DNA of 64,000 nt from an uncultured Candidatus Saccharibacteria bacterium (GCA_965231075.1 OZ246412.1:170019-234018); one strand, 5' to 3'. Shown: positions 13,702 to 63,010, numbered from the stretch's first letter. Translations and numbers: made by a program. The notes: generated from the letters alone by a model not told the origin.

Positions 13702-13750
13702 TCCCTGCCTGCCGGCAGGCAGGTCAGTATACAATAAATCTTCGTTAAGG

Positions 13751-21385: not shown

Positions 21386-22153
21386 ATGGTTAAAATCAAA
21401 CGAAAACCAGTAATTGCAATTTTGTCATTAACTTGTTGTGAAGGATGTCAAGTTGCGATTTTTGATTTAGGGGAAAGGTTTTTGGAATTTTTAACCAAAG
21501 TAAATATCGGTGATTTCCAATTAGCAGAAGAACTTCCTGATGTAAAAAAATATGATATTGCCATTGTTGAAGGTACAGCAATTACGAAAGCACAAATTAG
21601 AAGATTAAAGGAAGTTAGAAAGAAATCTAAAATATTAATCGCCATTGGTGCTTGTGCATTACTTGGAGGGCCACAAGAATTAAAAGATTATCGTGGCGAT
21701 AAAAACAAACTTATTAGACAAATTTATCCCAATGTTCGGGGGATTGATAATCCTAATGTAAAATCGGTCAAAGAAATGGTCAAAGTGGATTATGAAATTC
21801 CAGGTTGTCCAATAAACAAAGAAGAATTTTTTACAATCATCAATAAAATTTTAGAAAACAAAAAACCAAAAATTGAACAAAAACCAGTTTGTGAAGAATG
21901 CGTTAGAAAAAATAAGATGTGTTTATTGTTGTTAGGCAAACCATGTTTAGGGGCGATAACCCTGGCTGGTTGTGGCGCACCGTGTCCCAGAAGTGGTTTT
22001 ATGTGTGATGGATGTAGAGGACCGAAACAAAAAATTAATTTAAACGCAATGAAAAAAGCACTGAGAATTAAGGCACGATTAACTGACAACGAAATCGATA
22101 TGATTTTAGAAAGGTTCGGTAAGTGTAATGAATTAAAAAAAGCAAATTTATGA
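21386..22153 (+). CDS. [NiFe]-hydrogenase small (Fe-S) subunit, group 3/F420-nonreducing-like (255 aa)
   Basis: N-terminal proximal-cluster region (AILSLTCCEGCQ) and a C-terminal Cys-rich region (CEECVRKNKMC...CLGAITLAGCGAPCPRSGFMCDGCRGP). NuoB/hydrogenase-small fold. Confidence 0.8.
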   Translation: MVKIKRKPVIAILSLTCCEGCQVAIFDLGERFLEFLTKVNIGDFQLAEELPDVKKYDIAIVEGTAITKAQIRRLKEVRKKSKILIAIGACALLGGPQELKDYRGDKNKLIRQIYPNVRGIDNPNVKSVKEMVKVDYEIPGCPINKEEFFTIINKILENKKPKIEQKPVCEECVRKNKMCLLLLGKPCLGAITLAGCGAPCPRSGFMCDGCRGPKQKINLNAMKKALRIKARLTDNEIDMILERFGKCNELKKANL

Positions 22154-23406
22154 AATTAAGAATAGATCATATTGCGAAAATTGAAGGACATGCGAGTTTT
22201 ACCGCTGACATTGTTGACGGTGATGTTAGAGCGGCAAAAATTAAAATTGAAGAAGGAGCGAGATTATTTGAGGGTATTATGCAAGGCAGAAAGGACGAAG
22301 AAATCGCCGAGATTGGCTCAAGGATTTGTGGGGTGTGCCCAGTTGCTCATGTTTTTGCGGGTTTCAAAGCAATTGAAAACGCATATAAAATAGAGGTTAC
22401 TGAACCGGTATTGTCATTGAGAAAATTGATGTCTTTGGGGCAATTAATTAATAGTCACGCATTGCATTTATTTTTCTTTTCTTTGTCTGATTTTTTTGGA
22501 TTCAAAAGCGATTTAGAATTAGTGAATGCGTATCCTGAAAAAACTCACGATGCCGTGAAAATCAGAGACATTGGTAATAGATTAGTAGAAATTATTGGCG
22601 GAAGATCAATTCACCCCCTAACTCCTTGTATCGGCGGAATGAGAAAATCACCAGACACAAGCGAATTAAAGCAACTTTTAATTGATTGTCAGAATAATTT
22701 AGAATTAACTATAAAATTAGGTGAATTATTTATTAATCTAAAATATCCCGATTTTCATCGTCAAACAACTTTTGTTTCTCTTTACAATCCCAACGAATAT
22801 GCGATCTACGACGGACAAATTAAAGTTGATAAAATCGTGATGAAACCAGAAAATTTTATATCTTTACTTAAAGAAGTTCAAAAGGGTAATGATGTTGCTA
22901 AAAGAACGTCCTTTGCGGGTAAAAGTTATATGGTTGGAGCATTGGCAAGAATAAACAATCATCGAGAACAACTAAACCCACATGCCAAAGAATTATTAGA
23001 AAAATCTAAATTAAAATTTCCTTGTTATAATCCGTTTTACAATATTATGTGTCAAGCGATTGAATTAGTGCACTGTTTTGAGGAGGCAATCAAAATTTTG
23101 AATAAATTAATCAATCAAAAAATCGTTGTTTCGGAACCAAGGATAGAAAACACAAGTGGAACAGGAATTGGAATTGTCGAGGCGCCCAGAGGCATATTAT
23201 TTTATGGCACAGAAATAAAAGATAAAATTGTTAAGGGTATGGAAATTGTTTCGCCAACTTGTCAAAACCTTACCAACTTAGAGGCAGATTTAGAAGAATT
23301 TGAAAGATTGGGAGGATTTAAGAATTTAGATAAAAAAGAAAAAGAAGATAAGATTAAAATGTTAATTCGCGCATATGATCCTTGCGTAACTTGCGCAGTA
23401 CACTAA
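22150..23406 (+). CDS. [NiFe]-hydrogenase large (catalytic) subunit, 418 aa. It ends exactly at the C-terminal metal-binding motif with no cleavable extension.
   Basis: L1 motif RICGVCPVAH near the N-terminus and L2 motif DPCVTCAVH as the last 9 residues before the stop. Confidence 0.85.
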   Translation: MKLRIDHIAKIEGHASFTADIVDGDVRAAKIKIEEGARLFEGIMQGRKDEEIAEIGSRICGVCPVAHVFAGFKAIENAYKIEVTEPVLSLRKLMSLGQLINSHALHLFFFSLSDFFGFKSDLELVNAYPEKTHDAVKIRDIGNRLVEIIGGRSIHPLTPCIGGMRKSPDTSELKQLLIDCQNNLELTIKLGELFINLKYPDFHRQTTFVSLYNPNEYAIYDGQIKVDKIVMKPENFISLLKEVQKGNDVAKRTSFAGKSYMVGALARINNHREQLNPHAKELLEKSKLKFPCYNPFYNIMCQAIELVHCFEEAIKILNKLINQKIVVSEPRIENTSGTGIGIVEAPRGILFYGTEIKDKIVKGMEIVSPTCQNLTNLEADLEEFERLGGFKNLDKKEKEDKIKMLIRAYDPCVTCAVH

Positions 23407-23410
23407 TTTT

Positions 23411-24196
23411 ATGATTACAGATAGCCATACACATATTTACGACGAAGAAAAATATAAAAGTTATTTAAAAAGAGCGAAAGGGATGATATCAAAAATTATA
23501 GTTATGCATTGGCCAAAGTTTGATTTAGAAAAATTACTAAATTTTACGACCGCAAAAAACAATTTATATGTTGTAGGCAGCATAGACACCGAAAAGGAAA
23601 TAAAGGAACAACTAGAAGTACACGAAAGATTGTTTAAAGAAAAAAGAATATTTGGGATTAAAATTTATCCTGGTTATCAATATTTTTATCCATCAGACGA
23701 AAAAGTGTATGCAATTGCGGAATTGTGTCAAAAATACAACAAACCACTAATAATCCATTCTGGGGATGTTTATAATCCAGACAAAACAGCACTATTAAAA
23801 TACTCCCATCCGCTTTACATAGACGAATTAGCAGGAAAATTTCCTAATTGCAAAATCATTATTTCGCATTTCGGCTTTCCTTATTATATGGAAACAGCCA
23901 ACATTGTTTCAAAAAATAAAAACGTTTACACAGACATATCTGGGACAATAGACAAACAAAATACCAAAAAAAAAGAAAAAGCGATATTTAATCAATATAT
24001 GCGAGACATAGAAAGGGTGTTTGCATATTTCCCAAGCATTAAAGAAAAGATAATGTTCGGTACTGATTATGGCGGAGAAGATACGCCATTGTGTGAAGTT
24101 AGTCCATATATAAAGATTGTTAATGCCGTTTTTTCAAGAAAGGATCAAGATGTGGTTTTACATAAACTTGTAGAAAAATTATTTTTTACTGATTAA
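23411..24196 (+). CDS. Amidohydrolase-2 / TIM-barrel metal-dependent hydrolase family protein (261 aa)
   Basis: DSHTHI N-terminal metal ligands, IIHSG, SHFG and GTDYG motifs. It sits between the hydrogenase large subunit and the hypA-like gene. Confidence 0.6.
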   Translation: MITDSHTHIYDEEKYKSYLKRAKGMISKIIVMHWPKFDLEKLLNFTTAKNNLYVVGSIDTEKEIKEQLEVHERLFKEKRIFGIKIYPGYQYFYPSDEKVYAIAELCQKYNKPLIIHSGDVYNPDKTALLKYSHPLYIDELAGKFPNCKIIISHFGFPYYMETANIVSKNKNVYTDISGTIDKQNTKKKEKAIFNQYMRDIERVFAYFPSIKEKIMFGTDYGGEDTPLCEVSPYIKIVNAVFSRKDQDVVLHKLVEKLFFTD

Positions 24197-24199
24197 TTT

Positions 24200-24451
24200 A
24201 TGCACGACATGCATCTTGCGCAACAAATCATTAAAACCGTTCTCGAATACGCAGATAAGAATGGTTTTAAAAAAATTAAAAAAATCGAACTGGAATTAGG
24301 TTCGATTTTGGAGCATGACGAAGTAATTTCTCCAGAAAATTTAATTTTTAATTTTAATTTACTTTCCAAAAACACTATCGCCGAAAATGCAGAACTAAAC
24401 ATCAAACAAATAGCAGGGGATAATTGGAAATTAGTGGCTATTGAAGAGTAG
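24200..24451 (+). CDS. hypA: HypA-like nickel-insertion protein, N-terminal domain only (83 aa). The CxxC...CxxC zinc finger is absent.
   Basis: MHDMHLAQQIIKTVLEYADKNGFKKIKKIELELGSI...AENAELNIKQIAG follows the HypA N-terminal pattern (MHE motif for Ni) and stops where the zinc-finger domain normally begins. There are no Cys residues. Confidence 0.55.
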   Translation: MHDMHLAQQIIKTVLEYADKNGFKKIKKIELELGSILEHDEVISPENLIFNFNLLSKNTIAENAELNIKQIAGDNWKLVAIEE

Positions 24452-25406
24452 TTCCGATTATCTCTTTGTGGCCGTTTAAAAATTCTTTTGCCGACACCGG
24501 TTTTTTACCCTCCAGTTGTAGGGTTTTTAAAGTTAAAATTCTATCTCTAGTCTGAACACATAAATTTTTATCTTCATCCAGAAACGCTTCACCAACTTTA
24601 CGGTTGGTATTTTTGTTTAAAATTTCCGCATCAACAATCTTTAAGTTTTTAAATTTGTTATTTGAAATTTGAAATTGAGCATAGCTGGTTGGCCATTCTT
24701 GATAAGCTCTAATTTGTGCGTCAATTTCTTTTGCCGATTTATTCCAATCAATTTTTCCGTCTTCCTTTTTAATCAATTTGCAAAAAGTTGCCTGCGAATG
24801 ATCTTGTTCCTCTGGTGTGATTTTTCCTTCGATGTAATTAAATAAATTTTTAATTAATAATTCTGCGCCGGCATCAGTTAATTGATCGGATAATTCACTA
24901 TAAGTAATTTTATTTGAAATTGGAAATTTAAAACTTGAAATTATTTGACCATGATCAAGTTCTGCGTCCATGATCATCAAACAAATCCCGGTTTCGGTTT
25001 CGTTATTCAAAATAATCGACTGAATAGGGGATGCGCCTCGATATTTAGGCAAAAGCGATGGATGAATATTGAGAGCTTTATACTTGGGAATATCGAGTAT
25101 CTCCTGGGGTATAATTTGACCAAAAGCGGCAAGGATAATCAGGTCTGGTTTTAGCTCTTTTATTTTAGTCACCCATTCCGGCTTACGTACTTTATCTGGC
25201 TGTAAAACGTCAAAATTGGCCTCTAGGGCCCATTTTTTGACTGGGGAGGGGATAAGTACCTGTTTTCTGTCAACAGGCTTGTCTGGGGCGGTTATCACGG
25301 CAATGATTTCCAGTCCCTTATCTGTGAGTTGGGGAATGGCTTTGCGGAAAATTTTTTCCGCGAATTCTGGCGTTCCCATTAAAATTGTTCGGATCTTATT
25401 TAACAT
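24438..25406 (-). CDS. fmt: Methionyl-tRNA formyltransferase
   Basis: ILMGTPEFA N-terminus and the formyltransferase core (HPSLLPKYRGASPIQ). Confidence 0.9.
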   Translation of the reverse strand: MLNKIRTILMGTPEFAEKIFRKAIPQLTDKGLEIIAVITAPDKPVDRKQVLIPSPVKKWALEANFDVLQPDKVRKPEWVTKIKELKPDLIILAAFGQIIPQEILDIPKYKALNIHPSLLPKYRGASPIQSIILNNETETGICLMIMDAELDHGQIISSFKFPISNKITYSELSDQLTDAGAELLIKNLFNYIEGKITPEEQDHSQATFCKLIKKEDGKIDWNKSAKEIDAQIRAYQEWPTSYAQFQISNNKFKNLKIVDAEILNKNTNRKVGEAFLDEDKNLCVQTRDRILTLKTLQLEGKKPVSAKEFLNGHKEIIGTTLQ

Positions 25407-25872
25407 TGTCGCAAATTAATATTCCGTTTAAGTGATCGGTTTCGTGTTGAATGGCACGCGCTAAAATTCCTTTGGCTTTAATTTTAAATTCTTTACCTTT
25501 TTCGTCTTTGGCTTTTATTTTTAGGGATTTTGCACGCTCTATTTTAACAAACGAGTTTGGTAAACTTAAACATCCTTCTTCAATTAATTCTGTTTTTTTG
25601 GACATTTTGATTATTTCTGGATTGATAAAGACACATTTTTGAGAATAATTCTTATCGATTATAAAAATACGCAAATTTTTTCCCACCTGGCAAGCAGATA
25701 AACCGATACCGTTTTCTTTAATGATGGTTTCTTGCATGTTCTTAATAAAATCTAAAATTTCTTCGTTTATTTCTTTAACGAAATCAGATTTTGTGCGCAA
25801 CGTTGGATTGTTTTTTCCAGTTCGTAATTTAAGTATCATAATATGTTTTCGGGGCTTATCTCTGTTTCCCAA
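25396..25872 (-). CDS. def: Peptide deformylase
   Basis: GIGLSACQVG, EGCLSLP and HETDHLNG metal-binding motifs. Confidence 0.95.
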   Translation of the reverse strand: MGNRDKPRKHIMILKLRTGKNNPTLRTKSDFVKEINEEILDFIKNMQETIIKENGIGLSACQVGKNLRIFIIDKNYSQKCVFINPEIIKMSKKTELIEEGCLSLPNSFVKIERAKSLKIKAKDEKGKEFKIKAKGILARAIQHETDHLNGILICDNVK

Positions 25873-27512
25873 GTTGGTGGGACAATAATTAATATTTCGT
25901 TTCTTTGCTCTGTCATTAGGCGTGATTTAATAATTATATTCCACTTATATATTCCTCTTTCTTTTGAGACAAAAGCCGGGCTTGGTCCAAATAAATTAAT
26001 TTTCAATTTCCAATTTTCAATTTTCAATTGCGCTTTGATTTGTTGCTCTAGTTTATTTTTTAAAATCAATGCATCATTTTTTGCCTTGATAAAATCTTTG
26101 TGTGAATATGATAATTTAATGATCTCAGAAAATGGGGGATAGTCGTATTTTTCCCTTGCCTCAATTTCCTCATTATAGAACGTATTAAAGTTATTTTCAA
26201 TGGCTAATTTTATGGTTTTATTGTCAGAATTATAGGTCTGAACAAGGAACTCGTTTTGAGCCATATTCATTAATTGGTTTATGATTTGAAAAACTCTTTC
26301 CGAACTTTTAAAATCAGGTAAATTCAGAATTGTATCAATAGAAATAATTGCCACTAAATCCGCATGTAATTCTTTGTCCAGAATCATTTGTGAGCCGACT
26401 AGGACTGTATTTTTGCTATTTTTAAATTCGGCAATAATTTTTTGTTGTTCGGCAGGTTTTTCAGAAATATCGCCATCAAGACGAAATACTTTCTTGTTGG
26501 GCCCGCCTGCCGGCGAGGCGGGGAAGAGCTTTTTGATTTCTGATTCTATTTTTTGCGTTCCGGCGCCAAGATATTTTATTTTGACGCTTTTACAGCTTGG
26601 ACAAAGCACTGGTGCAATATCGTCTTTTCCGCAGTGATGGCAAATCAGGCGTCGAGACGGTTTTTCTTCATGGTAAATCATAGGAACCTCGCAAGAGCGA
26701 CATTTAGCAATATATCCACATTCCCGACAAAGAACAATTGTTGACGTACCTTTTCTGGCAATAAATAAAATTGACTTATCAGCGACTTTTATTTTGTCTT
26801 GGAGTTCTTTGCTGATTACAGAAAAATTTCCGCCTTTCATCTCTTCGCGCATATCGATAATAAAATTTTCAATTTTCAATTTTCGATTTTCAATTAATAG
26901 TTTGTGTTTTTTTTGCTCTGCCCAATAATAATCTTCAACCGTTGGTGTGTTGGTTTTTAAGATTAATTTTGCATTATGAATTTTTGCCAATTGGATTGCA
27001 ATGTCTTTGACATTATAATACGGTCTTCGCCCCCACGATTGATATAGATCGCTTTCCGAATCTTCAACGGTAATTGATTTAAGATTTTTAAACGGTGCAA
27101 ATACTAGCCCCTTGGTTTTTGGCGTTAGGGTCAGGTTTTGTATCTTGTATCTTGTATCTTGTATCTTAAAATTTTTAGAAAGAAATATCCTTGCAAAAAG
27201 TCCGATTGGCGCGAAATAATATTCAGAAAGCCAGGTCAATAGTTCTATTTGCTTTTCATTTAGAATTTGTTCTGATTTTTTAATTTTCTCGATCGGTCTA
27301 ATTTCAAAATCAGCATATTTTTTAAGTCGTAATTTTTCTTGATCCATTGATTTACACTCTAATACGACGGCATCAATTTTTTTACTGCGTAGAGGAACCT
27401 TAATTAAAAAACCAGGGTTGATTTTAGAAACTGAAAAATAGCTCAAAATCTGTGAATTTGGCCTGGGAATTTTAATTAACGGAACAACATTAAGAATATA
27501 CATCAATTCCAT
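25836..27512 (-). CDS. priA: Primosomal protein N-prime (PriA)-like, 558 aa. It has the N-terminal 3-prime-DNA-binding domain and the Cys-rich zinc region, but Walker A and DExH helicase motifs are not recognisable.
   Basis: N-terminus ILNVVPLIKIPRP...LSYFSV. CRR: CRECGYIAKCRSC...CHHCGKDD...CPSCKS. No GxGKT or DEAH found. The gene contains 4x heptanucleotide tandem repeats. Confidence 0.6.
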   Translation of the reverse strand: MELMYILNVVPLIKIPRPNSQILSYFSVSKINPGFLIKVPLRSKKIDAVVLECKSMDQEKLRLKKYADFEIRPIEKIKKSEQILNEKQIELLTWLSEYYFAPIGLFARIFLSKNFKIQDTRYKIQNLTLTPKTKGLVFAPFKNLKSITVEDSESDLYQSWGRRPYYNVKDIAIQLAKIHNAKLILKTNTPTVEDYYWAEQKKHKLLIENRKLKIENFIIDMREEMKGGNFSVISKELQDKIKVADKSILFIARKGTSTIVLCRECGYIAKCRSCEVPMIYHEEKPSRRLICHHCGKDDIAPVLCPSCKSVKIKYLGAGTQKIESEIKKLFPASPAGGPNKKVFRLDGDISEKPAEQQKIIAEFKNSKNTVLVGSQMILDKELHADLVAIISIDTILNLPDFKSSERVFQIINQLMNMAQNEFLVQTYNSDNKTIKLAIENNFNTFYNEEIEAREKYDYPPFSEIIKLSYSHKDFIKAKNDALILKNKLEQQIKAQLKIENWKLKINLFGPSPAFVSKERGIYKWNIIIKSRLMTEQRNEILIIVPPTWETEISPENIL

Positions 27513-27527
27513 TTTATCATTTTAAGA

Positions 27528-27536
27528 TGTTATAAT
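27528..27536 (+). promoter_or_regulatory. Extended -10 TGtTATAAT. The thpR ATG is 7 nt downstream, so the mRNA is leaderless.
   Basis: TGTTATAAT at 27528-27536, ATG at 27543. Confidence 0.5.
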
Positions 27537-27542
27537 AAAGAC

Positions 27543-28133
27543 ATGAACAAAAAAAGATTATTTGTGGCGATTAATTTGCCAGAAGCGATCAAAAATAAAC
27601 TTTTTGATTGGGAATTGAAGTTAGAAAAAGAATACGAGCTTGGTGAATTTCGTGGCAAAAACATTAATTGGGTAATTAAAAAAAACTTACACATTACTCT
27701 GGTTTTTATTGGCTACGCCACCGATGACGAAACTTATGAAATCGCCAAAATCATAAAAACCATTGCCAAGAATCATCAACAATTTTTTGTTAATTTAGAA
27801 AGAATTATTTTGGGGCCACCAGACGGAAGCGCAAGAATGTTTTGGGCAGAGGGAGAAAAAAGCCAGGAATTGGCGGAATTACAATTTGATTTAGAAAAAT
27901 CGCTAGACATTGGCGATAATCCACAAAAGCAAGCTCGCGCCTTTAGGCCACATGTTACTTTGGCAAGATTAAAGTCAAGTGTTAGTGAGATAATTAAAAA
28001 GAAGGGGATAATCGAGAAGAAAATAAATTATCAAATTCCGGTTGAAAGCATTGAATTAATGCAATCTACTCTTGGTCGTTCTGGACCAGAATACACAACA
28101 TTAGAATTAGTAGAATTGGGAAATGAAGAATAG
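27543..28133 (+). CDS. thpR: RNA 2-prime,3-prime-cyclic phosphodiesterase / 2-prime-5-prime RNA ligase (2H phosphoesterase, LigT/ThpR)
   Basis: Two H-x-T/S-x motifs (HITLVF, HVTLAR) at the expected spacing. Confidence 0.8.
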   Translation: MNKKRLFVAINLPEAIKNKLFDWELKLEKEYELGEFRGKNINWVIKKNLHITLVFIGYATDDETYEIAKIIKTIAKNHQQFFVNLERIILGPPDGSARMFWAEGEKSQELAELQFDLEKSLDIGDNPQKQARAFRPHVTLARLKSSVSEIIKKKGIIEKKINYQIPVESIELMQSTLGRSGPEYTTLELVELGNEE

Positions 28134-29148
28134 TTATGATGTTATTATTATTGGTGCGGGGATTGCGGGACTAGAATGTGCCAAGCATTTAGCGGGTTCT
28201 GGTCTGAGTATTTTGATAGTTGAAAAAAACAATAGTCCTGGATCTAAGGTTTGTGCCGAGGGGGTTGTATTACAGGACCTGAAATACGTTTCAAAAGAAG
28301 ATTTGAATTTTGATTTTCAAAAATTAATTTTTCACTACAAAAATAAAACCAAAGCATTTCCAGATAATGACGGCATTATATCGACAATAAATAGAAAAAC
28401 ACACATTAAACGAAAAATAGATCAACTTAAAAAAATTGATAATATAGAGTTTTTAATTGGTAATAGTGTTGCCAAAATTGTTGCGGGAAACTCTCTAGAA
28501 TTGAGCAGTGGTGAAATTATCAGATTTAAATATTTGGTTGGTGCAGATGGCTCAATTTCGGTTGTCAGAAAATATTTAAATTTACCATCAGAAAAAATTG
28601 AAATTGCGATGCAATATATTTTGCCTAAAAAATTCAATGATTTTGAAATTTATCTGGATAGCAAAAATTTAGGGACTGGATATTTGTGGATTTTTCCGAA
28701 CAAGGATTACGATTCAATCGGGTGTGGTGGAGATTTAAGATACATGAATGTCCAAAAAATGAAAGCATATTTTGAGCTTTGGTTAAAAGAAAAAAATATT
28801 AACTTTTCAAAAGAAAACCTACAAGCAGCTCTTATTAATTATGATTATAGGGGGTATAAATTTAATAATATATTTTTAGCCGGCGATGCTGCAGGGTTGG
28901 CCTCGGGAATATTGGGAAAAGGGATATATTCTGCATTTTTATCTGGAGAGCAAATAGCAAACGAAATTCTAAATAAGCCCGCTAACTATAATCTAATAGA
29001 AAGGTGGTTGAAGAAAAAAAGAAAACAAGAATTTTTTATGGTTTTTATGAAAAATAAAATCATAAGAAATTTGGCGTTTAATTGGGGAATAAAATCAATG
29101 CGTTTTCAAAAAATACAAAAATTGATAATGAGGGGCTTCATAAGATGA
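28123..29148 (+). CDS. FAD-dependent oxidoreductase of the geranylgeranyl reductase family (341 aa)
   Basis: YDVIIIGAGIAGLECA Rossmann motif and GSKVCAEGV (the GGR PxxCGEG-like motif). The stop overlaps the start of the next glycosyltransferase (ATGA). Confidence 0.7.
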   Translation: MKNSYDVIIIGAGIAGLECAKHLAGSGLSILIVEKNNSPGSKVCAEGVVLQDLKYVSKEDLNFDFQKLIFHYKNKTKAFPDNDGIISTINRKTHIKRKIDQLKKIDNIEFLIGNSVAKIVAGNSLELSSGEIIRFKYLVGADGSISVVRKYLNLPSEKIEIAMQYILPKKFNDFEIYLDSKNLGTGYLWIFPNKDYDSIGCGGDLRYMNVQKMKAYFELWLKEKNINFSKENLQAALINYDYRGYKFNNIFLAGDAAGLASGILGKGIYSAFLSGEQIANEILNKPANYNLIERWLKKKRKQEFFMVFMKNKIIRNLAFNWGIKSMRFQKIQKLIMRGFIR

Positions 29149-29855
29149 AAATTGATTTATTTGGAATACAATTTGATAATTTAACGATGAATGAGGCGGT
29201 GGAACAGGCGAAAGGATTTGTGGTTTTGGCGTATTCAGAGTTTGTGGTTAGAGCGCAAAAAGACGAAGAATACAAAAACATTTTAAACAAGGCAGATTTT
29301 TGTTTTTGTGAAAGCAGAGGATTATATTTGATGGCGAGGCTAATGGGTCGGAAACTTAAAGAACCCATTAATGGAATAGAAATAATTTATAAATTAAGTC
29401 AAAAGTCAAAAGTCAAAAGTCAAAAGTTATTTTTATTTGGCGGGACAGATGAGGTTGTGAGAAAAACAGCGAAAAGGTTGGGGGACGGTGTCATCGGTTT
29501 TGAAAACGGATATCAGGATTACAATTTAGTGATTCAAAAAATAAACAAGATTAAGCCGGATATTTTATTTGTGGCGCTGGGCGGAAGTGGCAAACAAGAA
29601 AAATGGATTTATGAAAATTTATCTAAAATGCCAAGTGTTAAATTGGCAATTGGCGTTGGAGGAGCATTTGATTTTATTTCAGGAACAATCAAGCGTGCAC
29701 CCATCTTTTTTCAAAAAACAGGAACAGAATGGTTGTGGCGTTTAATCTTGCAACCCAAAAGATTCAAAAGAATTTTTATAGGAGTGGGCGGTTTAATTTG
29801 CTTGACTCTTAAAAATATGTTACATTTAAAAAAGGAGAAACAAAAAGGTCGTTAG
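29145..29855 (+). CDS. WecB/TagA/CpsF-family glycosyltransferase (N-acetylmannosaminyltransferase-like). I use the internal start at 29145.
   Basis: MKIDLFGIQFDNLTMNEAVE N-terminus plus FVALGGSGKQEKW and GVGGAFDFISG, typical of the family. The ATG overlaps the upstream stop. It contains the agtcaaa x4 heptamer repeat. Confidence 0.75.
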   Translation: MKIDLFGIQFDNLTMNEAVEQAKGFVVLAYSEFVVRAQKDEEYKNILNKADFCFCESRGLYLMARLMGRKLKEPINGIEIIYKLSQKSKVKSQKLFLFGGTDEVVRKTAKRLGDGVIGFENGYQDYNLVIQKINKIKPDILFVALGGSGKQEKWIYENLSKMPSVKLAIGVGGAFDFISGTIKRAPIFFQKTGTEWLWRLILQPKRFKRIFIGVGGLICLTLKNMLHLKKEKQKGR

Positions 29856-29896
29856 GAATTGAAAATTGAAAATTAAAAATTAAAAATTTAAATAAT

Positions 29897-36786: not shown

Positions 36787-37260
36787 ATGAAAGTCATTTT
36801 ATTAAAAGATATTCAGGGATTGGGGAAAAAAGGAGAAATTAAAAATGCCTCAGATGGGCATGTAAGAAATTTTCTTGTGCCAAAAAAATTAGTTAAGATT
36901 GCTACAGATAAGGCAATTAAAGAGTGGGAACAAGAAAAAGCTATGGAGGCGCAAAAAGCGGAACAAGAATTACAACACGTCGAAGAAGTTGTTTCACAGA
37001 TAGACGGTTTAGAAATAGAGGTTCCAACCAAAATGGACGAATCGGGCAAACTCTATGGTTCAATCAATGATCAAAAAATAAGTCAATTATTTAAAGATAG
37101 AGGATTTGATATTAGAAAAAATCAAATTAAAATTCCCCAACCGATTAAAACGATTGGAGAATATCCAATAACAATTAGCTTTGATCACGGACTAGAAGCA
37201 GAAATCAAACTGATAATCGTTGACGAAGCCCTACTGAAGACTAAATCAGAAGAGAATTAA
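36787..37260 (+). CDS. rplI: 50S ribosomal protein L9
   Basis: [35 protein letters not shown]. Confidence 0.9.
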
Positions 37261-37529
37261 ACAACATCAACGACCTTAAAAGTTTTTTTGTTGCCATCAA
37301 ATCCAGTTTTAGAGGTTGTTCTAAACTTAACAGTTCCCGATTTTACAGCATACAAAGTATCGTCTTTGCCTTTTCGAACGTTCTTACCGGCAATAAATCT
37401 TGTGCCTCTTTGGCGAATTATAATACTACCAATTTGAGCTTTTTGCCCCTGGTATAATTTTACGCCTAGATATTTTGGTTGCGAGTCTCGTCCTAGTTTA
37501 GTCGATCCCGCGGATTTAGTTGTTGACAT
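37257..37529 (-). CDS. rpmA: 50S ribosomal protein L27
   Basis: [29 protein letters not shown]...[10 protein letters not shown]. Confidence 0.95.
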
Positions 37530-37643
37530 AGAATTTTATGTTATCACATTTAAAAGAATATTTCAAGCACAATAGCCATGACATGTTTATTGTCGTGGTT
37601 ATTATTTTAATCGCCCTAATTTTCTTTGGTCTGGGCCGTCTAT

Positions 37644-38741
37644 CTACGCCCTCTTTGTGCTTGCCTTAATTATTGTGTATTTTTTGTTTTCTTTTTTCGC
37701 TTCCGAAAGTTGATCTTGGATTGGTTGGGGGAGGGTTCTGATTATTTTCTCCAGTTTCTCAATATCATAACCACCAACCCTTAATTGTGTTAAACGTGTG
37801 ATAAAACCAGAATCCCCAAATACTCTTTCAATTTTTTCTCGGTCTAAATAATTTTCAATGATATCTTTTAATTCATTGATTTTTTTATTGTTTTGAGTGT
37901 TGTTGTTTTTCAGGTCCAAAAACTGATTAATAACTTTTTTAATTTGTTCGTCATCAATGGTTGTTTCTTTATATAAATGCTTCCACATTGGGCAGATTTT
38001 TTTGTATCCACACCAATCACAAAGCACTGATGGCATTGGTTCAAATTCACTTTTTTCAATCTTCTTTAATTCTTGCCAAACATGTTTTTGCACCTCATTT
38101 AGCTGTTCTTTGGTTCGATGGGTGGAAATTGTCTCTTGGTGCTTTAAATAGTACAGAGTCAATTTAATGTTTTCAATGCCGTTTTCTATAAATTGCGGCC
38201 AGCGATTCATTATTCCTAGGCAATACAAAGACATTTGCATGCTTTTGTGAATATCTTCTTGAGAAGGTAATTTTTTTGTAGTTTTGTAGTCAATAATTTC
38301 AATTCCGGTTTTAGTTTTATCGATTCGATCGATGATCCCCGTTAAAAGACATTTTTCTTCTTTGTTTTCGGGATTTTCCAGTAAAACTTCAAATCTAGTT
38401 TCGGTGCCAAGTACAGAGAAATTATCTTTAATTTTTAAATAATTTTCGTAATAGTTTTTAAGGATTTTTATGGCTTCGGAAAAATAAATCATATCTTCGT
38501 CTCCCTGAAAAACCGTGCTATCCCAAATGGTTTTAAAATGGTTTAGCAACTCGTCCAAAGTAGGGGAGACGGGATTTTGTTTATGGAACCACTCTAATGC
38601 TTCGTGAAGTTTTCCACCAAAAACCGCCTCTTTTGTTTTAGGGGCCTTTATTTTATCGATAACTTGAAATTTATACTTAAGTGGACACTGTTTAAACGTG
38701 TCTAACGCAGAGTATGAAATTCTCAATGTTTTTCGTTCCAT
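37644..38741 (-). CDS. Cas4-like / RecB-family PD-(D/E)XK nuclease with a 4Fe-4S Cys cluster (365 aa), carrying a ~110-aa C-terminal extension
   Basis: N-terminal Cys (FKQCPLKY), GIIDRID...IEIIDYKT (the PD-(D/E)XK motifs) and C-terminal CDWCGYKKIC (C-x2-C-x5-C). Confidence 0.7.
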   Translation of the reverse strand: MERKTLRISYSALDTFKQCPLKYKFQVIDKIKAPKTKEAVFGGKLHEALEWFHKQNPVSPTLDELLNHFKTIWDSTVFQGDEDMIYFSEAIKILKNYYENYLKIKDNFSVLGTETRFEVLLENPENKEEKCLLTGIIDRIDKTKTGIEIIDYKTTKKLPSQEDIHKSMQMSLYCLGIMNRWPQFIENGIENIKLTLYYLKHQETISTHRTKEQLNEVQKHVWQELKKIEKSEFEPMPSVLCDWCGYKKICPMWKHLYKETTIDDEQIKKVINQFLDLKNNNTQNNKKINELKDIIENYLDREKIERVFGDSGFITRLTQLRVGGYDIEKLEKIIRTLPQPIQDQLSEAKKENKKYTIIKASTKRA

Positions 38742-38742
38742 G

Positions 38743-39591
38743 TTATTTTTCTAAAAATTCGATTGCTTTTTTTGCGTCTTTATAGCCAAGATCAAAAGTA
38801 TCGCTAAGATGTTTTTGGTTTGTGTCTAATAAAAAGGTTATAGGGATTTTTTTGGACGGCGTTAAAAGCATGATATTTTTATGTCTTAATGCTTCTTTTT
38901 TGACGAATTCAATTTTTTTAAAATAATCACGCATCAAATTTTCAATATTTTTGGGCAATGCGCGCGAAGCTTGTTCGAATAAAAATTTTACCACACTTCT
39001 TTCCTGATATTTATTTTCTTTATTGTGAACAATTAAAATTTTGTCAAATTTTTTAATAAAACTTGTTTTAAATGGCAATGGTTCGGCGAGTCCACCATCA
39101 AGGTATTTTATGCCATTTATTTTGACCATTGGATATAGTGGAAAAATTGCGGAGGAGGCATTCATTGCTTTAAACAAATTTTTTTCTGTAGGTTTTATAT
39201 ATTTAGCTTTTCCGGTTTTGAAATCGGTTAAAACATATTGTAAATCAACTTTTGAATTAGCTATCTCTCTCGGTTTCGGCTTACAGGTTTTTTTTATGGC
39301 AACGGTTAAATAGTCTAAATCTAAAACATGTCCTTTTTGATAAACATTTTTGAAATCAACTAATTTGTCAGAATCAATATATTGCTTCCAAAGTTTTTCT
39401 AGTCCGTCTGTGGAATTAGAAATAAAAGCGGTTGAATTATAAGCACCCGCAGAAGAACCGATAATTTTATCGAAATAATTGGGTCCAAATTTTTTACAAA
39501 GTCGATGTAAAACCCCAGCACTATAGGCACCTCGTAATCCGCCCGAACCAACAATTAATAATTTTTTTTGTTTTTTTAAATTTTTTCTCAT
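38743..39591 (-). CDS. Patatin-like phospholipase (~282 aa from the internal start MRKNLKK; the track ORF extends to 39684)
   Basis: Oxyanion hole GSGGLRG, nucleophile elbow GSSAG and the catalytic DGG (YLDGGL). A start at 39591 gives an ATGA overlap with the upstream membrane-protein gene. Confidence 0.75.
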   Translation of the reverse strand: MRKNLKKQKKLLIVGSGGLRGAYSAGVLHRLCKKFGPNYFDKIIGSSAGAYNSTAFISNSTDGLEKLWKQYIDSDKLVDFKNVYQKGHVLDLDYLTVAIKKTCKPKPREIANSKVDLQYVLTDFKTGKAKYIKPTEKNLFKAMNASSAIFPLYPMVKINGIKYLDGGLAEPLPFKTSFIKKFDKILIVHNKENKYQERSVVKFLFEQASRALPKNIENLMRDYFKKIEFVKKEALRHKNIMLLTPSKKIPITFLLDTNQKHLSDTFDLGYKDAKKAIEFLEK

Positions 39592-39989
39592 AGAGCCAAG
39601 AATAAAATGTTTAATAATATAATTATTATGTCTACTAATAAGTAAATACGATTTGTTTTGTGTGGTTGTCTTTGGGTGTGCCAAAGACCAATTTTAGAAT
39701 TTCTGAATTTTTTTATTAAAACCAAGGAAGTGTCTACAATCAACCCTCCAACTGCTCCTAATATAGTGCCGAAAGAATATTGGTAATAACAAAGCAAAAT
39801 TAATATTATGGTTGATATTGTCGCGTCTAAAAATATTATTCTGTCTTGACTTTTTTTGTTATTTGGCCAATAATGAGGAACTTTATCAAATATAAAATGC
39901 AATAAAATCCCCGTCAAAAAAGCGATTATTGGGTTTCCGATAATCTTACCAGCGCTTGCGCCAATTAAGGTGTGATTTATGCTTAACAT
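39588..39989 (-). CDS. Hypothetical small membrane protein (133 aa), first gene of the membrane protein-patatin-nuclease operon
   Basis: 3-4 TM helices. It is tightly coupled to the patatin gene. Confidence 0.45.
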   Translation of the reverse strand: MLSINHTLIGASAGKIIGNPIIAFLTGILLHFIFDKVPHYWPNNKKSQDRIIFLDATISTIILILLCYYQYSFGTILGAVGGLIVDTSLVLIKKFRNSKIGLWHTQRQPHKTNRIYLLVDIIIILLNILFLAL

Positions 39990-40020
39990 GTTCTAATTAT
40001 AAATCATTTTTAAATTATAA

Positions 40021-40052
40021 AAAAGCAGGGGAGAGGAGGTCTCTCGCCCTGC
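40021..40052 (-). terminator. Rho-independent terminator (minus strand), paralogous to the one at 40325-40362
   Basis: On the minus strand it reads GCAGGGCGAGAGACCTCCTCTCCCCTGC followed by TTTTTT. Confidence 0.65.
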
Positions 40053-40060
40053 GGGGGTAC

Positions 40061-40258
40061 TCAAATATTCCTTACGACGAGAATGATGGTGTCCGTGAAC
40101 AGCAAGAACTCCGTACAGCCCATCAGAAAAAGTGCACCAGAGATGGCCCTTGTTTTATCGGGCGCGGTGAGTGGGTTAGTGTTTAGCGCTCTGGCACTAG
40201 AGACCATAAACACAACAAACCAAATCCACCAATACCTAAGGATAAATTCCCAAAACAT
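40061..40258 (-). CDS. Possible small hydrophobic protein (65 aa) bracketed by two similar terminators
   Basis: The ORF has two TM-like segments. No homology recognised. Low confidence. Confidence 0.25.
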   Translation of the reverse strand: MFWEFILRYWWIWFVVFMVSSARALNTNPLTAPDKTRAISGALFLMGCTEFLLFTDTIILVVRNI

Positions 40259-40324
40259 ATTATCCTCCTTGAATTAAAAGATAAATTTATCTTAACGCGC
40301 CTAATTGTTTGCGTCAAGGAGAAT

Positions 40325-40362: not shown

Positions 40363-40390
40363 AGATTCAGAATCTGCGTTGTTTATTATT

Positions 40391-48087: not shown

Positions 48088-48137
48088 ATGATTTACAAAT
48101 TCAAATTTAAAATTTTGAATTTCAAATTTTGAATTCG

Positions 48138-60819: not shown

Positions 60820-61896
60820 TTAATGTTCATTCGCAAATTGGTTCACAAACTCTAAAATTTCTTTTTTAAATCTATCTTCAGAAAATTGTTGAGCGTGGGA
60901 TTTAATAAAATCGGCACTGTATTTTGTCTGTCTTAGACGTCTGATTCCATCGGCTAAAATTGCCGAGTTTTGATAATCAAAAAATTCTCCAGTTTTTCCT
61001 TCAATTACTGTTTCTAACGCCCCCCCTCTTCGATAAGCCAAGACCGGCTTACCATAACTCATCGCCTCTACTGGTGCGATTCCAAAATCATCATCTGACG
61101 GAAAAATAAATGCGGTGCAATCTTGATAATGTTTTGCCACAATTTCATTGGGCTGAAGTCCCAAAAATTTAACATTCCTCTTTGCAATTCTTTGTAAACT
61201 TTCCTTTTCTGGTCCGTCCCCGATTATTATTAAGTTAAGCCCTAATTTATTAAATGCTTCAACCGCCAAATCAATGCGTTTGTATTTTTGTAACCGAGAG
61301 ACAATTAAATAAAATTCTTTTTGCTCATTCGAATTTTGAGAATTCATTGAAAATTGAGAATTGGAAATTGAAAATTGAACGGGCGGGTATATCACTACCG
61401 ACTTCCGTTTATAGTATTTTTTGATTCTGTTTTGCACTGCCTTTGAACAAGCGATAAAATGATCCACCCGCTCTGATGCTTGTCTGTCCCACATTCTGAA
61501 ATAATGTAATATTATATTTTTTCTCGATTTATCCCACAAATAACGGGTTGGACTGAAACAATAATCAATATGAATTGTTTTTGGTCGAGTAATAATTCCC
61601 TTTACAAAAGAATGGCTTGCGGAAATTACAATATCATAATCACGCAAATCAATTGTTTCTGCGGCAATTGGTAGAAATGGTAACAACAATTGATATCTTT
61701 TTCTAATAAACAGTGGTAATCGTTGCAAAAAAGAAGCATTCATTCTGTGAATTGGAAATAATTCTTTTTTGATTTTGGGGTCATAGAATAAAGAATACAA
61801 TTCAGCATCAGGAAAAATGTCAGACAACGATTTAAACGTTTTCTCTGCTCCGCCATAAGAAGTCAGGTAATCATTTATTATAGCAATTTTAGGCAT
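60820..61896 (-). CDS. Glycosyltransferase family 4
   Basis: C-terminal FIFPSDDDFGIAPVEAMSYGKPVLA GT4 motif. It contains an imperfect gaaaatt-type heptamer array. Confidence 0.8.
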   Translation of the reverse strand: MPKIAIINDYLTSYGGAEKTFKSLSDIFPDAELYSLFYDPKIKKELFPIHRMNASFLQRLPLFIRKRYQLLLPFLPIAAETIDLRDYDIVISASHSFVKGIITRPKTIHIDYCFSPTRYLWDKSRKNIILHYFRMWDRQASERVDHFIACSKAVQNRIKKYYKRKSVVIYPPVQFSISNSQFSMNSQNSNEQKEFYLIVSRLQKYKRIDLAVEAFNKLGLNLIIIGDGPEKESLQRIAKRNVKFLGLQPNEIVAKHYQDCTAFIFPSDDDFGIAPVEAMSYGKPVLAYRRGGALETVIEGKTGEFFDYQNSAILADGIRRLRQTKYSADFIKSHAQQFSEDRFKKEILEFVNQFANEH

Positions 61897-61900: not shown

Positions 61901-63010
61901 CTAATTAGAAATTAATATTTTAAATGTTTCTTCGGCACATTTTGGCCAAGAAAAACGCTGAACATTTTCGTATCCTCTTTTCACCAATTCGTCACTAAAC
62001 ACTTGATTTCTGATAATTTTATGAATCCCTTCAGCAATTTCTGATGGCTTATAAGGATTAACCAAAATCGCACTGGGTTCATGATTTAGTGGGTTAAAAA
62101 CGATTTCTGGCATACTAGAAATGCTCGAACAAACAACGGGGACTCCAGCTTTTTGCGCTTCCAAAATTGGAATCCCAAATCCTTCATAAAAAGATGGGAA
62201 CACAAACACATCGGCGTTTTTTAATAGATTCCATTTTTCTTCATCTTTAACATATCCCGTACAAATAATATCGTTTTTTAAATCGTTGGGAATTTTGTAA
62301 TTTTTATTCGGTCCAAGCAAAATTAATTTATGCGGGATGTTGTGATCATGTTTCAAAATCTTCAGCGCTTTAATTAACCCATTAATATTCTTTCTTTTAT
62401 CTTTTCTACCGATGTATACAAGATATGGTTTATCTTGAATTTTCAATTTTAAATTTTTAATTTCAATTGGTGGACTCCCCACTCCATGATAAACAACAAA
62501 AACTTTATTTTCATCGACAGAATAATATTTTATTAAATCATTTTTGGTGGAATTCGACGGAACAATAATTTTATCAGACCGAGACGCATTTCTCTTGGTG
62601 ATAAATTTTAATAATAATCTTTTGTGCCAAGAATACATTTTGGGTAATTTTTCGAATTCCAGACCTTGAATTACGGTGATAATGCGTGTTTTGCCAACAA
62701 AAAATGGCATTAGGTGTGCTGGCAAAAATAGAACATCATATTTGTTCTTACAAACATCCCAACTTAAACGAACAATTGTCCAAAATTTTTTAAATGGCCA
62801 ATTTAATTGCCTTAAAACATATTTTTTATTATCAGCTTGTAATCCCTCGGCAACTTCTTTTAGTGTTTCAGTTATTTGCGGGGTTAAGATAAAAAATTGA
62901 TGATTTTCAAAACCATCAACCGATGAAAGATTCCAGAGTAAATGATAAACGTATTCCTCTACTCCGGTTCTATTTTCTAGGGGGATATTAACCGATATAG
63001 CGATTTTCAT
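61901..63010 (-). CDS. Glycosyltransferase family 4
   Basis: VFVFPSFYEGFGIPILEAQKAGVPVVCS GT4 motif. Confidence 0.8.
   Translation of the reverse strand: MKIAISVNIPLENRTGVEEYVYHLLWNLSSVDGFENHQFFILTPQITETLKEVAEGLQADNKKYVLRQLNWPFKKFWTIVRLSWDVCKNKYDVLFLPAHLMPFFVGKTRIITVIQGLEFEKLPKMYSWHKRLLLKFITKRNASRSDKIIVPSNSTKNDLIKYYSVDENKVFVVYHGVGSPPIEIKNLKLKIQDKPYLVYIGRKDKRKNINGLIKALKILKHDHNIPHKLILLGPNKNYKIPNDLKNDIICTGYVKDEEKWNLLKNADVFVFPSFYEGFGIPILEAQKAGVPVVCSSISSMPEIVFNPLNHEPSAILVNPYKPSEIAEGIHKIIRNQVFSDELVKRGYENVQRFSWPKCAEETFKILISN

What the first reader, a model, noticed from the sequence alone, without database searches (positions are those of the whole stretch)
25997..29889. Recurrent 4x tandem heptanucleotide repeats in and next to envelope-glycan genes and the priA-like gene
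At least six loci carry four tandem copies of a 7-nt unit. They are aattttc-type arrays at 25997-26030 and 26865-26896 (both inside the priA-like gene), tgtatct x4 at 27138-27167 (priA-like), agtcaaa x4 at 29398-29427 (inside the TagA/WecB-like glycosyltransferase), gaaaatt/aaaaatt x4 at 29856-29889 (intergenic, just after that gene) and gaaaatt-like x4 at 61349-61376 (inside a GT4 gene). A 7-nt unit is not a multiple of 3, so gaining or losing one unit shifts the reading frame. This is the classic signature of slipped-strand phase variation, and glycosyltransferases are the usual targets. The shared GAAAATT flavour could also mean a common origin or a protein-binding iteron.
Basis: seen in the sequence. 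Interest (0 to 1): 0.5.

Follow-up and report, generated by a model that had tools for sequence, protein, structure and literature searches.

The report
In-frame heptanucleotide microsatellites in Patescibacteria genes
The 7-base tandem repeats are real and far beyond chance, but they look like a lineage-wide kind of microsatellite sitting in frame in tolerant protein loops of ordinary genes, not on/off switches aimed at glycan genes.

Summary
All six arrays exist where stated. The window has six arrays of at least 4 copies at period 7, none at periods 5, 6 or 8-12, and none in 200 shuffles. The organism is a Portnoybacteria-like Patescibacterium. Sixteen relatives carry 24 such arrays in 196 kb, against 4 (all in one contig) in 1.07 Mb of non-CPR controls. 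Array length peaks at 30-35 nt. About 90% lie inside genes, and every one is in frame in PriA-like, WecG, two GT4, Fmt and other proteins, at loops or linkers. Orthologous sites carry arrays with different units that are each internally homogeneous. Some relatives have "empty" alleles, and the unit often matches local sequence in the empty allele, which suggests local slippage with re-homogenisation. Units containing a stop triplet always carry the one substitution that removes the in-frame stop. The same sites also receive GC-rich palindromic mini-inserts and are recombination breakpoints. One natural allele of the orthologous GT4 lacks exactly one unit and is frameshifted, so unit slippage does occur. 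It is rare (about 1 in roughly 80 sequences, versus 66% OFF for neuO). Housekeeping genes are hit equally, and tract length is conserved. My verdict is slippage-driven intragenic heptamer SSRs filtered by selection. Evolved phase variation and iterons are not supported.

The parts
25996..26030 (-). A (GAAAATT)~4.7 array in frame in the PriA-like gene ('site 3', just before the conserved LFGPSPAF motif). It encodes QLKIENWKLKIN. Its one variant unit (TGG) removes the in-frame TGA.
   Evidence: It is conserved in L083 and L098 (34/36 nt). It maps to a helix end and loop in the AF2 model.
26863..26896 (-). A (GAAAATT)~4.6 array in frame in the PriA-like gene ('site 2', before IIDMREEM). It encodes LIENRKLKIENF. 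Its one variant unit (CGA) removes the in-frame TGA.
   Evidence: Orthologues carry AAAATCC, AAGATAC or AATTCAA arrays, or a GC-rich double hairpin, at this site. It maps to a beta-hairpin turn.
27135..27170 (-). A perfect (AAGATAC)4.3 array in frame in the PriA-like gene ('site 1', after ARIFLSKN). It encodes FKIQDTRYKIQN.
   Evidence: Relatives have other arrays, a palindromic insert, or an 'empty' allele here. It maps to a loop with a pLDDT dip.
29394..29430 (+). A perfect (AAGTCAA)4.6 array in frame in the WecG/TagA-family glycosyltransferase. It encodes LSQKSKVKSQKL.
   Evidence: Orthologues have AAATCAA, AAACTCA, AGAAACA or AAGATAC arrays at the same codon. Empty alleles are exactly 21 nt shorter.
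29857..29892 (.). An intergenic (GAAAATT/AAAAATT)5.1 array between the wecG stop codon and a 45-aa membrane-like ORF.
   Evidence: It is conserved, including its variant unit, in L084 at 8618-8647. Promoter-like matches are no more frequent than in shuffles.
61346..61379 (-). An array (coding strand TTTCAAT type, 4.9 copies) in frame in the inter-domain linker of a GT4 glycosyltransferase. It encodes VQFSISNSQFS.
   Evidence: The linker is hypervariable in 120 orthologues. A one-unit deletion allele exists in one orthologue.
62432..62468 (-). A partly decayed GAAAATT-type array in the equivalent linker of the adjacent, second GT4 gene. It encodes PIEIKNLKLKIQD.
24909..24944 (-). A decayed heptamer array (AATTTCA type, 79% internal identity) in fmt 'site 1'. 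It encodes IISSFKFPISNK.
   Evidence: The orthologous arrays are perfect in L084, L089 and L094, each with a different unit.
24647..24676 (-). A decayed heptamer array in fmt 'site 2'. It encodes QFQISNNKFKN.
   Evidence: Relatives have occupied or empty alleles, and L090 shows an independent gain.
48091..48135 (.). A degenerate intergenic period-7/14 array (ATTTAAA / AATTTTG, about 6 copies).
26502..26522 (-). A 21-nt GC-rich palindrome (CCCGCCT-CGCCGGC-AGGCGGG) inserted in frame in the PriA-like gene, encoding ASPAGGP. It represents the second insert class that shares these sites.
   Evidence: exactly +21 nt relative to 14 orthologues, shared only with L084. (hairpin, -7.7 kcal/mol). (pLDDT 64).

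Best explanation
These are heptanucleotide microsatellites, a lineage-wide feature of this group of Patescibacteria (Parcubacteria, Portnoybacteria-like). I infer that they arise locally by replication slippage or misaligned repair acting on short A-rich sequences that already repeat at a 7-nt spacing. I also infer that the same process re-homogenises them from time to time, which would make this a case of the known but unexplained excess of 7-nt SSRs in bacteria. Because the genome is about 90% coding, most arrays fall inside genes. Selection then keeps only three kinds of array: those in structurally tolerant loops or linkers, those whose net length preserves the frame, and those whose in-frame stop triplets have been mutated away. 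The frame filter could explain the narrow 30-35 nt mode, since a proto-repeat of about 1.5 units plus 3 units (21 nt) gives about 4.5 units. Single-unit changes do occur and destroy the gene, but they are rare and appear to be purged rather than used as a switch. The same tolerant sites also collect GC-rich palindromic mini-inserts and act as recombination breakpoints. The following are shown: the period specificity, the lineage distribution, the in-frame status, the shared sites with differing units, local unit origin at three sites, one natural -1-unit allele, and the loop locations. The following are inferred: slippage as the generator, the 21-nt quantum, and neutrality.
For: Period 7 is the only enriched period: 6 arrays versus 0 in shuffles, and 0 at the frame-neutral periods 6 and 9. 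Close relatives carry 24 arrays in 196 kb, other CPR loci carry 5 in 160 kb, and 1.07 Mb of non-CPR controls (including AT-rich Clostridia) carry 4, all in one contig. Array length has a mode at 30-35 nt, with 27 of 49 arrays at 30-36 nt. Of 38 arrays, 34 are intragenic and all are in frame. Orthologous sites carry internally homogeneous arrays with different units, for example perfect AATTTCA, AATTCAA and AAATTCG arrays at Fmt site 1, and 5 unit classes at the WecG site. Within-cluster variants show the same A/G change moving between units without any length change (P0012 versus P0249). The units match local sequence in empty alleles. The WecG empty allele contains AAAAGGCAAAA against the unit AAAAGTC and is exactly 21 nt shorter. 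The Fmt site 2 empty allele contains AAAATCCTG against the unit AAATCCT. The PriA site 1 empty allele contains AAAAATTC. All 10 perfect arrays have stop-free units, and every stop-containing unit carries the substitution that kills the stop. TGA is a normal stop codon here. A precise 7-nt deletion allele exists in nature. The arrays map to loops, turns and pLDDT dips in a confident model. Of 120 PriA homologues, 22 contain peptides that decode exactly as 7-nt periodic DNA, and 14 of 120 GT4 orthologues do so in the linker. Distant Patescibacteria reuse the same sites. The literature reports heptamer SSR excess and a polymerase-footprint slippage hypothesis (PMC4692102).
Against: Nothing here explains why the period is 7 rather than 5, 6, 8 or 9. 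The 21-nt quantum fits the length mode and the WecG site, but occupied versus empty alleles differ by +9, +12 and +18 nt at three other sites. Some orthologous arrays are 94-100% identical between species whose 4-fold sites are only 43-55% identical. That is more conserved than a neutral filler should be, although reading each unit in all three frames adds constraint. Arrays built from stop-containing units need the expansion and the stop-killing change together. Near-identical GT4 genes carry unrelated linkers through a recombination patch of about 107 nt, so exchange between lineages also shapes these sites, not only slippage. No read-level data were available.
Confidence: 0.6

Rival explanations
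1. These are evolved contingency loci. The arrays would be slipped-strand phase-variation switches that turn envelope-glycan genes (WecG, GT4) on and off in the population.
For: The unit length is not a multiple of 3. Three of the six strong arrays lie in or next to glycosyltransferase genes. A natural allele of the orthologous GT4 has lost exactly one unit and is frameshifted. The tracts are far longer than chance allows.
Against: The same arrays occur in fmt, in the priA-like gene and in spacers, at a density that simply tracks coding density. None of the 29-34 intragenic arrays in 17 genomes is out of frame. Tract length is constant across orthologues. Only about 1 OFF allele was seen among roughly 80 sequences, against 66% OFF and 3-53 copies for neuO. 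Tracts are only 4-5.6 units long. Three independent assemblies of this organism are identical.
Confidence: 0.08
2. These are small selfish or mobile cassettes. On this view the roughly 32-nt heptamer arrays, together with the roughly 21-31-nt GC-rich palindromes that land inside them, are inserted or renewed by a dedicated lineage-specific activity at preferred target sites and are exchanged between lineages by short-patch recombination. The analogues would be Rickettsia palindromic elements or Nostoc small dispersed repeats.
For: The arrays have a discrete size mode. The same few sites are hit repeatedly and independently: L090 gained a different array at Fmt site 2, and L006 and L011, which are distant, reuse PriA site 3 and Fmt site 2. 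GAAAATT-type units recur at 5 loci in the window. GC double hairpins of one family sit precisely inside arrays in many species. A 107-nt divergent patch is centred on the array in otherwise identical genes. Presence and absence have clean boundaries, +21 nt in each case.
Against: Units differ from site to site and resemble the local sequence of empty alleles, so the array sequence is not imported. The arrays have no terminal repeats, no conserved flanks and no secondary structure. No candidate enzyme was identified. Recurrent use of a few sites is also expected if only a few loops tolerate inserts.
Confidence: 0.17
3. The arrays are functional cis-elements or peptide modules. They would be kept because the 7-bp periodic, A-tract-rich DNA or RNA is recognised (nucleoid protein, iteron-like binding, translation pacing), or because the encoded heptad peptide (KIENWKL, KIQDTRY) serves as a linker or helix.
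For: Several orthologous arrays are 94-100% identical across species with near-saturated synonymous sites. An intergenic array is conserved together with its variant unit. Of 29 arrays, 26 have the A-rich strand as the coding strand. The peptides have heptad a/d hydrophobic spacing, which can be read directly from the sequence.
Against: The unit sequence is not conserved at a given site (7 rotation classes at Fmt site 1). Either orientation occurs at the same site (P0035 NFQFSIFNFQ versus the window KIENWKLKI). Empty alleles and unrelated palindromic inserts replace the arrays freely, even within clusters at 90% identity. Many arrays are decaying. There is no structure and no Rfam match. Protein-level selection would not preserve nucleotide periodicity.
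Confidence: 0.12
4. The arrays are a compositional or assembly artefact, arising by chance in AT-rich DNA or from mis-assembly.
For: The genome is 34% G+C and rich in A-tracts.
Against: No period-7 arrays appeared in 200 shuffles. AT-rich control genomes have none. Three assemblies give identical sequence. The arrays are shorter than the assembly k-mers and are constrained to open reading frames.
Confidence: 0.01

Closest known systems
Heptanucleotide SSR excess in bacteria, including cyanobacterial STRR repeats (Calothrix, Nostoc) and Xanthomonas GGGAATC repeats
   Same: These are tandem 7-nt units at many loci per genome, with period 7 over-represented while neighbouring periods are not. Length and sequence vary between relatives at conserved positions. 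Function is unknown, and a polymerase-footprint slippage hypothesis has been proposed (PMC4692102; Mrazek 2007 and Mazel 1990 are cited through that paper).
   Different: Those repeats are G-rich and overwhelmingly intergenic, with a broad copy-number range (up to 26-mers and beyond). The arrays here are A/T-rich and about 90% intragenic. They are always in frame, confined to 4-5.6 units, placed at conserved protein loops, and found in Patescibacteria.
neuO poly-psi heptanucleotide tract (E. coli K1, phage CUS-3)
   Same: It is a 7-nt unit (AAGACTC, one or two changes from AAGATTC and AAGATAC here) inside a coding region of a glycan-modifying enzyme. It is translated in all three frames into a heptad peptide, and gain or loss of a unit shifts the frame.
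   Different: neuO has 3-53 copies, 66% of genomes are OFF, and it switches measurably in culture. The tracts here are short, constant among orthologues and almost always ON, and they occur in housekeeping genes too.
Rickettsia palindromic elements, Nostoc small dispersed repeats and yeast mitochondrial GC clusters (recalled from memory; the papers were not retrievable)
   Same: They are very small repeated inserts tolerated in frame within conserved proteins, at surface positions. They are polymorphic for presence or absence, and some are nested in other repeats.
   Different: This description fits the GC-rich palindromes seen here well, but the heptamer arrays only loosely. The arrays lack palindromy, have site-specific units, and appear to be made from local sequence.
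Plasmid or chromosomal iterons
   Same: They are direct repeats with a shared sequence flavour.
   Different: Iterons are about 17-22 bp protein-binding sites clustered at origins. The units here are 7 nt, lie inside ORFs, vary in sequence between orthologues, and have no rep gene or origin context.

Membership tests
SSR-mediated phase-variable (contingency) locus | A tandem tract in a coding region or promoter, with a unit length that is not a multiple of 3 and a tract longer than composition predicts | tested here: met
SSR-mediated phase-variable (contingency) locus | Frequent tract-length polymorphism among strains, with both ON and OFF alleles common | tested here: not met
   No OFF alleles among 29-34 arrays in 17 genomes. 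One unit-deletion allele among roughly 45 full-length cluster members and more than 80 contigs. neuO, for comparison, is 66% OFF.
SSR-mediated phase-variable (contingency) locus | A preference for non-essential surface or host-interaction genes | tested here: not met
   Arrays occur in fmt, in the priA-like gene and in spacers as well as in WecG and GT4.
SSR-mediated phase-variable (contingency) locus | High-rate reversible switching within a clonal population | not testable with these tools
   No reads or cultures were available. Three assemblies of the organism are identical.
Bacterial heptanucleotide SSR class (STRR-like) | Many tandem 7-nt arrays per genome, with period 7 specifically over-represented | tested here: met
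Bacterial heptanucleotide SSR class (STRR-like) | A predominantly intergenic location | tested here: not met
   34 of 38 arrays are intragenic and in frame.
Bacterial heptanucleotide SSR class (STRR-like) | One or a few genome-wide unit sequences | tested here: inconclusive
   GAAAATT-type units dominate in the window (5 loci), but AAGATAC, AAGTCAA and many other units also occur.
neuO-type poly-psi tract | A long, highly variable heptanucleotide tract at the 5' end of the gene, with only multiples of 3 in frame | tested here: not met
   The tracts are internal, 4-5.6 units long, and constant among orthologues.
Iterons | Conserved repeats of about 17-22 bp bound by a Rep or initiator protein at an origin | tested here: not met
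   The unit is 7 nt, lies inside ORFs, and is not conserved between orthologues. Binding itself is not testable.
Intragenic miniature mobile elements (RPE / SDR-like) | Dispersed copies of one sequence with hairpin potential, inserted in frame with clean presence/absence boundaries | tested here: inconclusive
   The feature is met for the GC-rich palindromes. For the heptamer arrays, clean +21-nt boundaries are seen at WecG, but there is no hairpin and the units are site-specific and locally derived.

The most novel reading that the evidence does not exclude
Patescibacteria may have a lineage-specific process, not just passive slippage, that writes and renews heptanucleotide cassettes of about 32 nt at a small set of fixed sites in housekeeping and envelope genes. 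GC-rich palindromic mini-elements would then home into these cassettes, and the sites would serve as hot spots for short-patch exchange between lineages. That would make this a new class of intragenic selfish or mutagenic element system.
Probability: 0.15. Interest if true: 0.8.

Novelty: new variant of a known kind. Interest (0 to 1): 0.55.

Why it matters
The excess of 7-nt tandem repeats in bacteria has been noted since 1990 and 2007 without an accepted mechanism, and it has been studied almost only in intergenic DNA. Here the repeats sit in frame at homologous codons of conserved proteins across hundreds of uncultivated Patescibacteria. Each site is therefore a natural replicate whose ancestral, expanded, decayed, interrupted and frameshifted states can be aligned. 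That makes the generating process testable from sequence data alone: step size, homogenisation, and interplay with palindromic inserts and recombination. There are two practical points as well. These tracts and palindromes explain many 'low-complexity inserts' in CPR proteins. They are also sites where metagenome assemblies break or become mosaics. Annotators should not call them phase-variable loci by rule of thumb.

Tried and rejected
The genome-contig scan with the PriA alignment returned mostly distant, non-CPR PriA genes, so I used those loci as negative controls rather than as relatives.

The +21-nt 'accordion' rule holds at WecG. It fails at PriA site 1 (+12 nt), PriA site 3 (+9 nt) and Fmt site 2 (+18 nt), so I keep it only as a hypothesis for the length mode.

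I tested whether the Fmt site 1 patch evolves much faster or slower than the rest of the gene. The differences are modest, within about 0.15 either way.

Three apparent truncated alleles turned out not to be unit changes. L103 has a 1-nt deletion in a T-run next to an intact array. P0276 has a scaffold gap (a run of N) at the array, and P0279 has an unrelated upstream sequence that begins at site 1.

Three structural or regulatory readings gave nothing. Promoter-like matches at the intergenic array are no more frequent than in shuffles. The arrays have no single-strand structure (z between -0.02 and +1.1). There are no Rfam matches in the whole window.

An alternative genetic code, with TGA as a sense codon, is rejected because TGA terminates 7 of 59 ORFs.

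Mrazek 2007 and Elhai 2008 were not held in the library. Four literature searches found nothing on such repeats in Patescibacteria.

Full report
**Observation.** I scanned every period from 4 to 12 for windows of four units with at most 8% mismatch to perfect periodicity. Period 7 gave exactly six arrays, periods 5, 6 and 8-12 gave none, and period 4 gave one. In 200 dinucleotide-preserving shuffles, period 7 gave none. TRF also finds weaker period-7 arrays at 24647-24676, 48091-48135, 54868-54890 and 62438-62468. A decayed array lies at 24909-24944.

**Context.** The window is 34% G+C and uses the standard genetic code, since TGA ends 7 of 59 ORFs. It comes from a Portnoybacteria-like member of the Patescibacteria. 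The PriA-like protein is 100% identical to one on a 626-kb NCBI contig, and its named relatives are Portnoybacteria or Patescibacteria MAGs. Pfam assigns the array-bearing genes as follows: a PriA-like protein (3'BD, Cys-rich region and C-terminal domain only), a WecG/TagA-family transferase, two adjacent GT4 transferases, and Fmt. Every intragenic array is read through in frame. The encoded peptides are KIQDTRYKIQ, IENRKLKIEN and LKIENWKLKI in PriA, SQKSKVKSQK in WecG, and VQFSISNSQFS and PIEIKNLKLKI in the GT4 linkers. A perfect (GAAAATT)n tract contains TGA in every frame. Each of the two PriA GAAAATT arrays has a variant unit at exactly the in-frame TGA position, TGG in one and CGA in the other.

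**A lineage-wide phenomenon.** Two Logan assemblies are identical to the window, so I turned to relatives. Sixteen metagenomic loci with PriA at 58-81% identity carry 24 arrays of at least 4 copies at period 7 in 196 kb, and nothing at periods 5, 6 or 8-12. Other CPR loci carry 5 arrays in 160 kb. In 1.07 Mb of non-CPR loci, including AT-rich Clostridia, there are 4 arrays, all in one Anaerolineales contig. The period-7 length histogram is not a decay curve. It has a mode at 30-35 nt. Of 38 arrays of at least 26 nt, 34 lie in long ORFs and all of those are in frame. The fraction that is intragenic matches coding density. At the protein level, 22 of 120 PriA homologues (down to about 30% identity) contain a 9-residue peptide that decodes exactly as perfect 7-nt periodic DNA, and 14 of 120 GT4 orthologues contain an 8-residue peptide of that kind in the linker. 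Distant Patescibacteria (L006, L011) have in-frame arrays at the same PriA and Fmt sites.

**Anatomy of the sites.** Alignments of orthologues show that the arrays occupy a few fixed, hypervariable positions. There are three such positions in PriA, one in WecG, two in Fmt, and the inter-domain linker in GT4.

- Different units at the same codon. WecG carries AAGTCAA, AAATCAA, AAACTCA, AGAAACA or AAGATAC in different species. Fmt site 1 carries seven rotation classes. Some arrays are perfect and others have decayed to 76-80% internal identity.
- Empty alleles. The WecG empty allele is exactly 21 nt (3 units) shorter.
- Local origin of the unit. The unit resembles local sequence in the empty allele: AAAAGGCAAAA against AAAAGTC at WecG, AAAATCCTG against AAATCCT at Fmt site 2, and AAAAATTC at PriA site 1. 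This points to local expansion rather than import.
- Homogenisation without length change. Within one 90%-identity cluster, the same A/G variant appears in different units with no change in length (P0012 versus P0249). That is what misalignment-templated homogenisation would produce.
- Structural position. A confident AF2 model of the PriA-like protein (pLDDT 89) places the arrays in a loop, a beta-hairpin turn and a helix end, each with a local pLDDT dip.
- Other properties. All ten perfect arrays have stop-free units, and 26 of 29 have the A-rich strand as the coding strand. The arrays have no single-strand structure.

**Other things that happen at the same sites.** GC-rich palindromes of 21 nt (single hairpin) or about 27-31 nt (double hairpin, [YCMGCC-N3-GGCKGR]x2) are inserted in frame at these positions. 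They often sit in the middle of a heptamer array, for example agtcaaaagtcaaaactc|TCCGCCAAAGGCGGATCCGCCTCGGGCGGA|aaaactcaaaaa in the WecG gene of L096. The window has one in priA at 26502-26522, exactly +21 nt relative to 14 orthologues. GT4 proteins that are nearly identical outside the linker carry unrelated linkers. At the DNA level, L099 and L100 differ at 1 of 485 nt upstream and 0 of about 490 nt downstream. Across about 107 nt centred on the array they are only about 60% identical, and the flanking differences fall at third codon positions. That pattern indicates a short recombination patch imported from a diverged lineage. A second pair shows a recombination breakpoint at the linker, with about 87% identity upstream and 98-100% downstream.

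**Phase variation.** The mechanistic premise is right, and I found one case in nature. In the P0183 cluster of the orthologous GT4, two contigs carry 5.6 units. A third contig, about 98% identical and from a different sample (assembled at k=141, which is longer than the tract), lacks exactly one unit, and its gene is split. Everything else argues against evolved switching.

- No array is out of frame in 17 genomes.
- Tract length is constant among orthologues.
- Across 20 clusters there is only this one unit-step OFF allele. One further frameshift is in an adjacent T-run, and two apparent truncations are not unit changes.
- Arrays occur in fmt and priA as well as in the glycan genes.
- Tracts are only 4-5.6 units long.
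- The benchmark heptanucleotide switch neuO ranges from 3 to 53 copies, and 66% of genomes are OFF.

The iteron idea fails because the unit is not conserved between orthologues and the arrays lie inside genes.

**Most likely mechanism.** I think these are slippage-generated heptanucleotide microsatellites. This is the known but unexplained 7-nt SSR excess (PMC4692102), here in a gene-dense, AT-rich lineage. Selection filters them for a tolerant location, an intact frame and the absence of stops. A frame filter acting on 7-nt steps allows roughly 1.5 units to become roughly 4.5 units, which matches the 31-33 nt mode and the WecG alleles. It does not match the +9, +12 and +18 nt differences at three other sites.

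**What remains unexplained.** I cannot explain why the period is 7. Some arrays are 94-100% identical between species whose 4-fold sites are about 50% identical. Arrays built from stop-containing units must somehow have arisen in functional genes. And it is unclear why palindromes and recombination patches concentrate at these sites. I give the passive-SSR model about 0.6, a dedicated or mobile-cassette process about 0.17, a functional cis-element or peptide about 0.12, and evolved phase variation about 0.08.

**Novelty.** Heptamer SSR excess, STRR repeats and neuO are all known. I found no description of such repeats in Patescibacteria. The intragenic, in-frame, site-conserved and length-restricted form, with nested palindromes, appears to be a new variant of a known kind.

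Noticed in passing
window 26502-26522 and 13670-13727; L091 620 and 1512, L092 2269 and 3161, L094 10554, L096 5017, 9099, 10565 and 11419, L089 6882, L090 10622, L084 10622: There is a family of GC-rich palindromic mini-inserts in an AT-rich genome. The single hairpin is 21 nt and the double hairpin, [YCMGCC-N3-GGCKGR]x2, is about 27-31 nt. They are inserted in frame in PriA, WecG and GT4, often in the middle of a heptamer array and flanked by AAAATT. A third palindromic insert (tcctccttcgccaaagctacggagga, encoding SSSFAKATED) occurs at PriA site 1 in two distant relatives.
   Followed up: partly
L099:191-1282 versus L100:1501-2574; L101 versus L102: Near-identical GT4 genes differ only in a patch of about 107 nt centred on the linker array, with synonymous differences in the flanks. 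This looks like short-patch recombination or a strain mosaic. In a second pair the linker is a recombination breakpoint, with about 87% identity upstream and 98-100% downstream.
   Followed up: partly
window 25836-27512 (-): The PriA-like protein and its close relatives (at least about 45% identity) lack the first helicase lobe, which holds the Walker A motif in the Thermincola PriA (P0120). Pfam finds only the 3'BD, Cys-rich and C-terminal domains. More distant Parcubacteria homologues (P0049, P0062, P0080) keep the extra segment of about 60-70 residues.
   Followed up: partly
window 16367-16836: TRF reports a perfect 243-bp tandem duplication (1.9 copies, 100% identity) inside the 826-aa ORF at 15410-17890.
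   Followed up: no
window about 37000-42000: Cumulative GC skew peaks here, and gene orientation switches from the + strand to the - strand with convergent genes. This is what a replication terminus region would look like.
   Followed up: no
L048 2372-2408, 4799-4826, 5349-5405 and 7370-7402: One Anaerolineales (Chloroflexota) contig carries four heptamer arrays of the unit CACGCAT or its complement, 4-8 copies each. These were the only period-7 arrays in 1.07 Mb of non-CPR control sequence.
   Followed up: no
window 22150-24451: A NiFe-hydrogenase large-subunit gene, an amidohydrolase gene and a HypA-like gene lie just upstream of fmt/def/priA in this small-genome bacterium (precomputed Pfam hits).
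   Followed up: no
GT4 orthologues P0176, P0252 and P0261, near the C-terminus (RRLRxNL|KNY): The same GT4 family has a second insertion hot spot that carries a GC-palindrome-encoded peptide (LACRQAD or FAYRQAG) in some members of clusters at 90% identity.
   Followed up: no
whole window: A 64-kb stretch has no Rfam match at gathering thresholds, so no Rfam family, including tRNA or riboswitch families, was detected.
   Followed up: no
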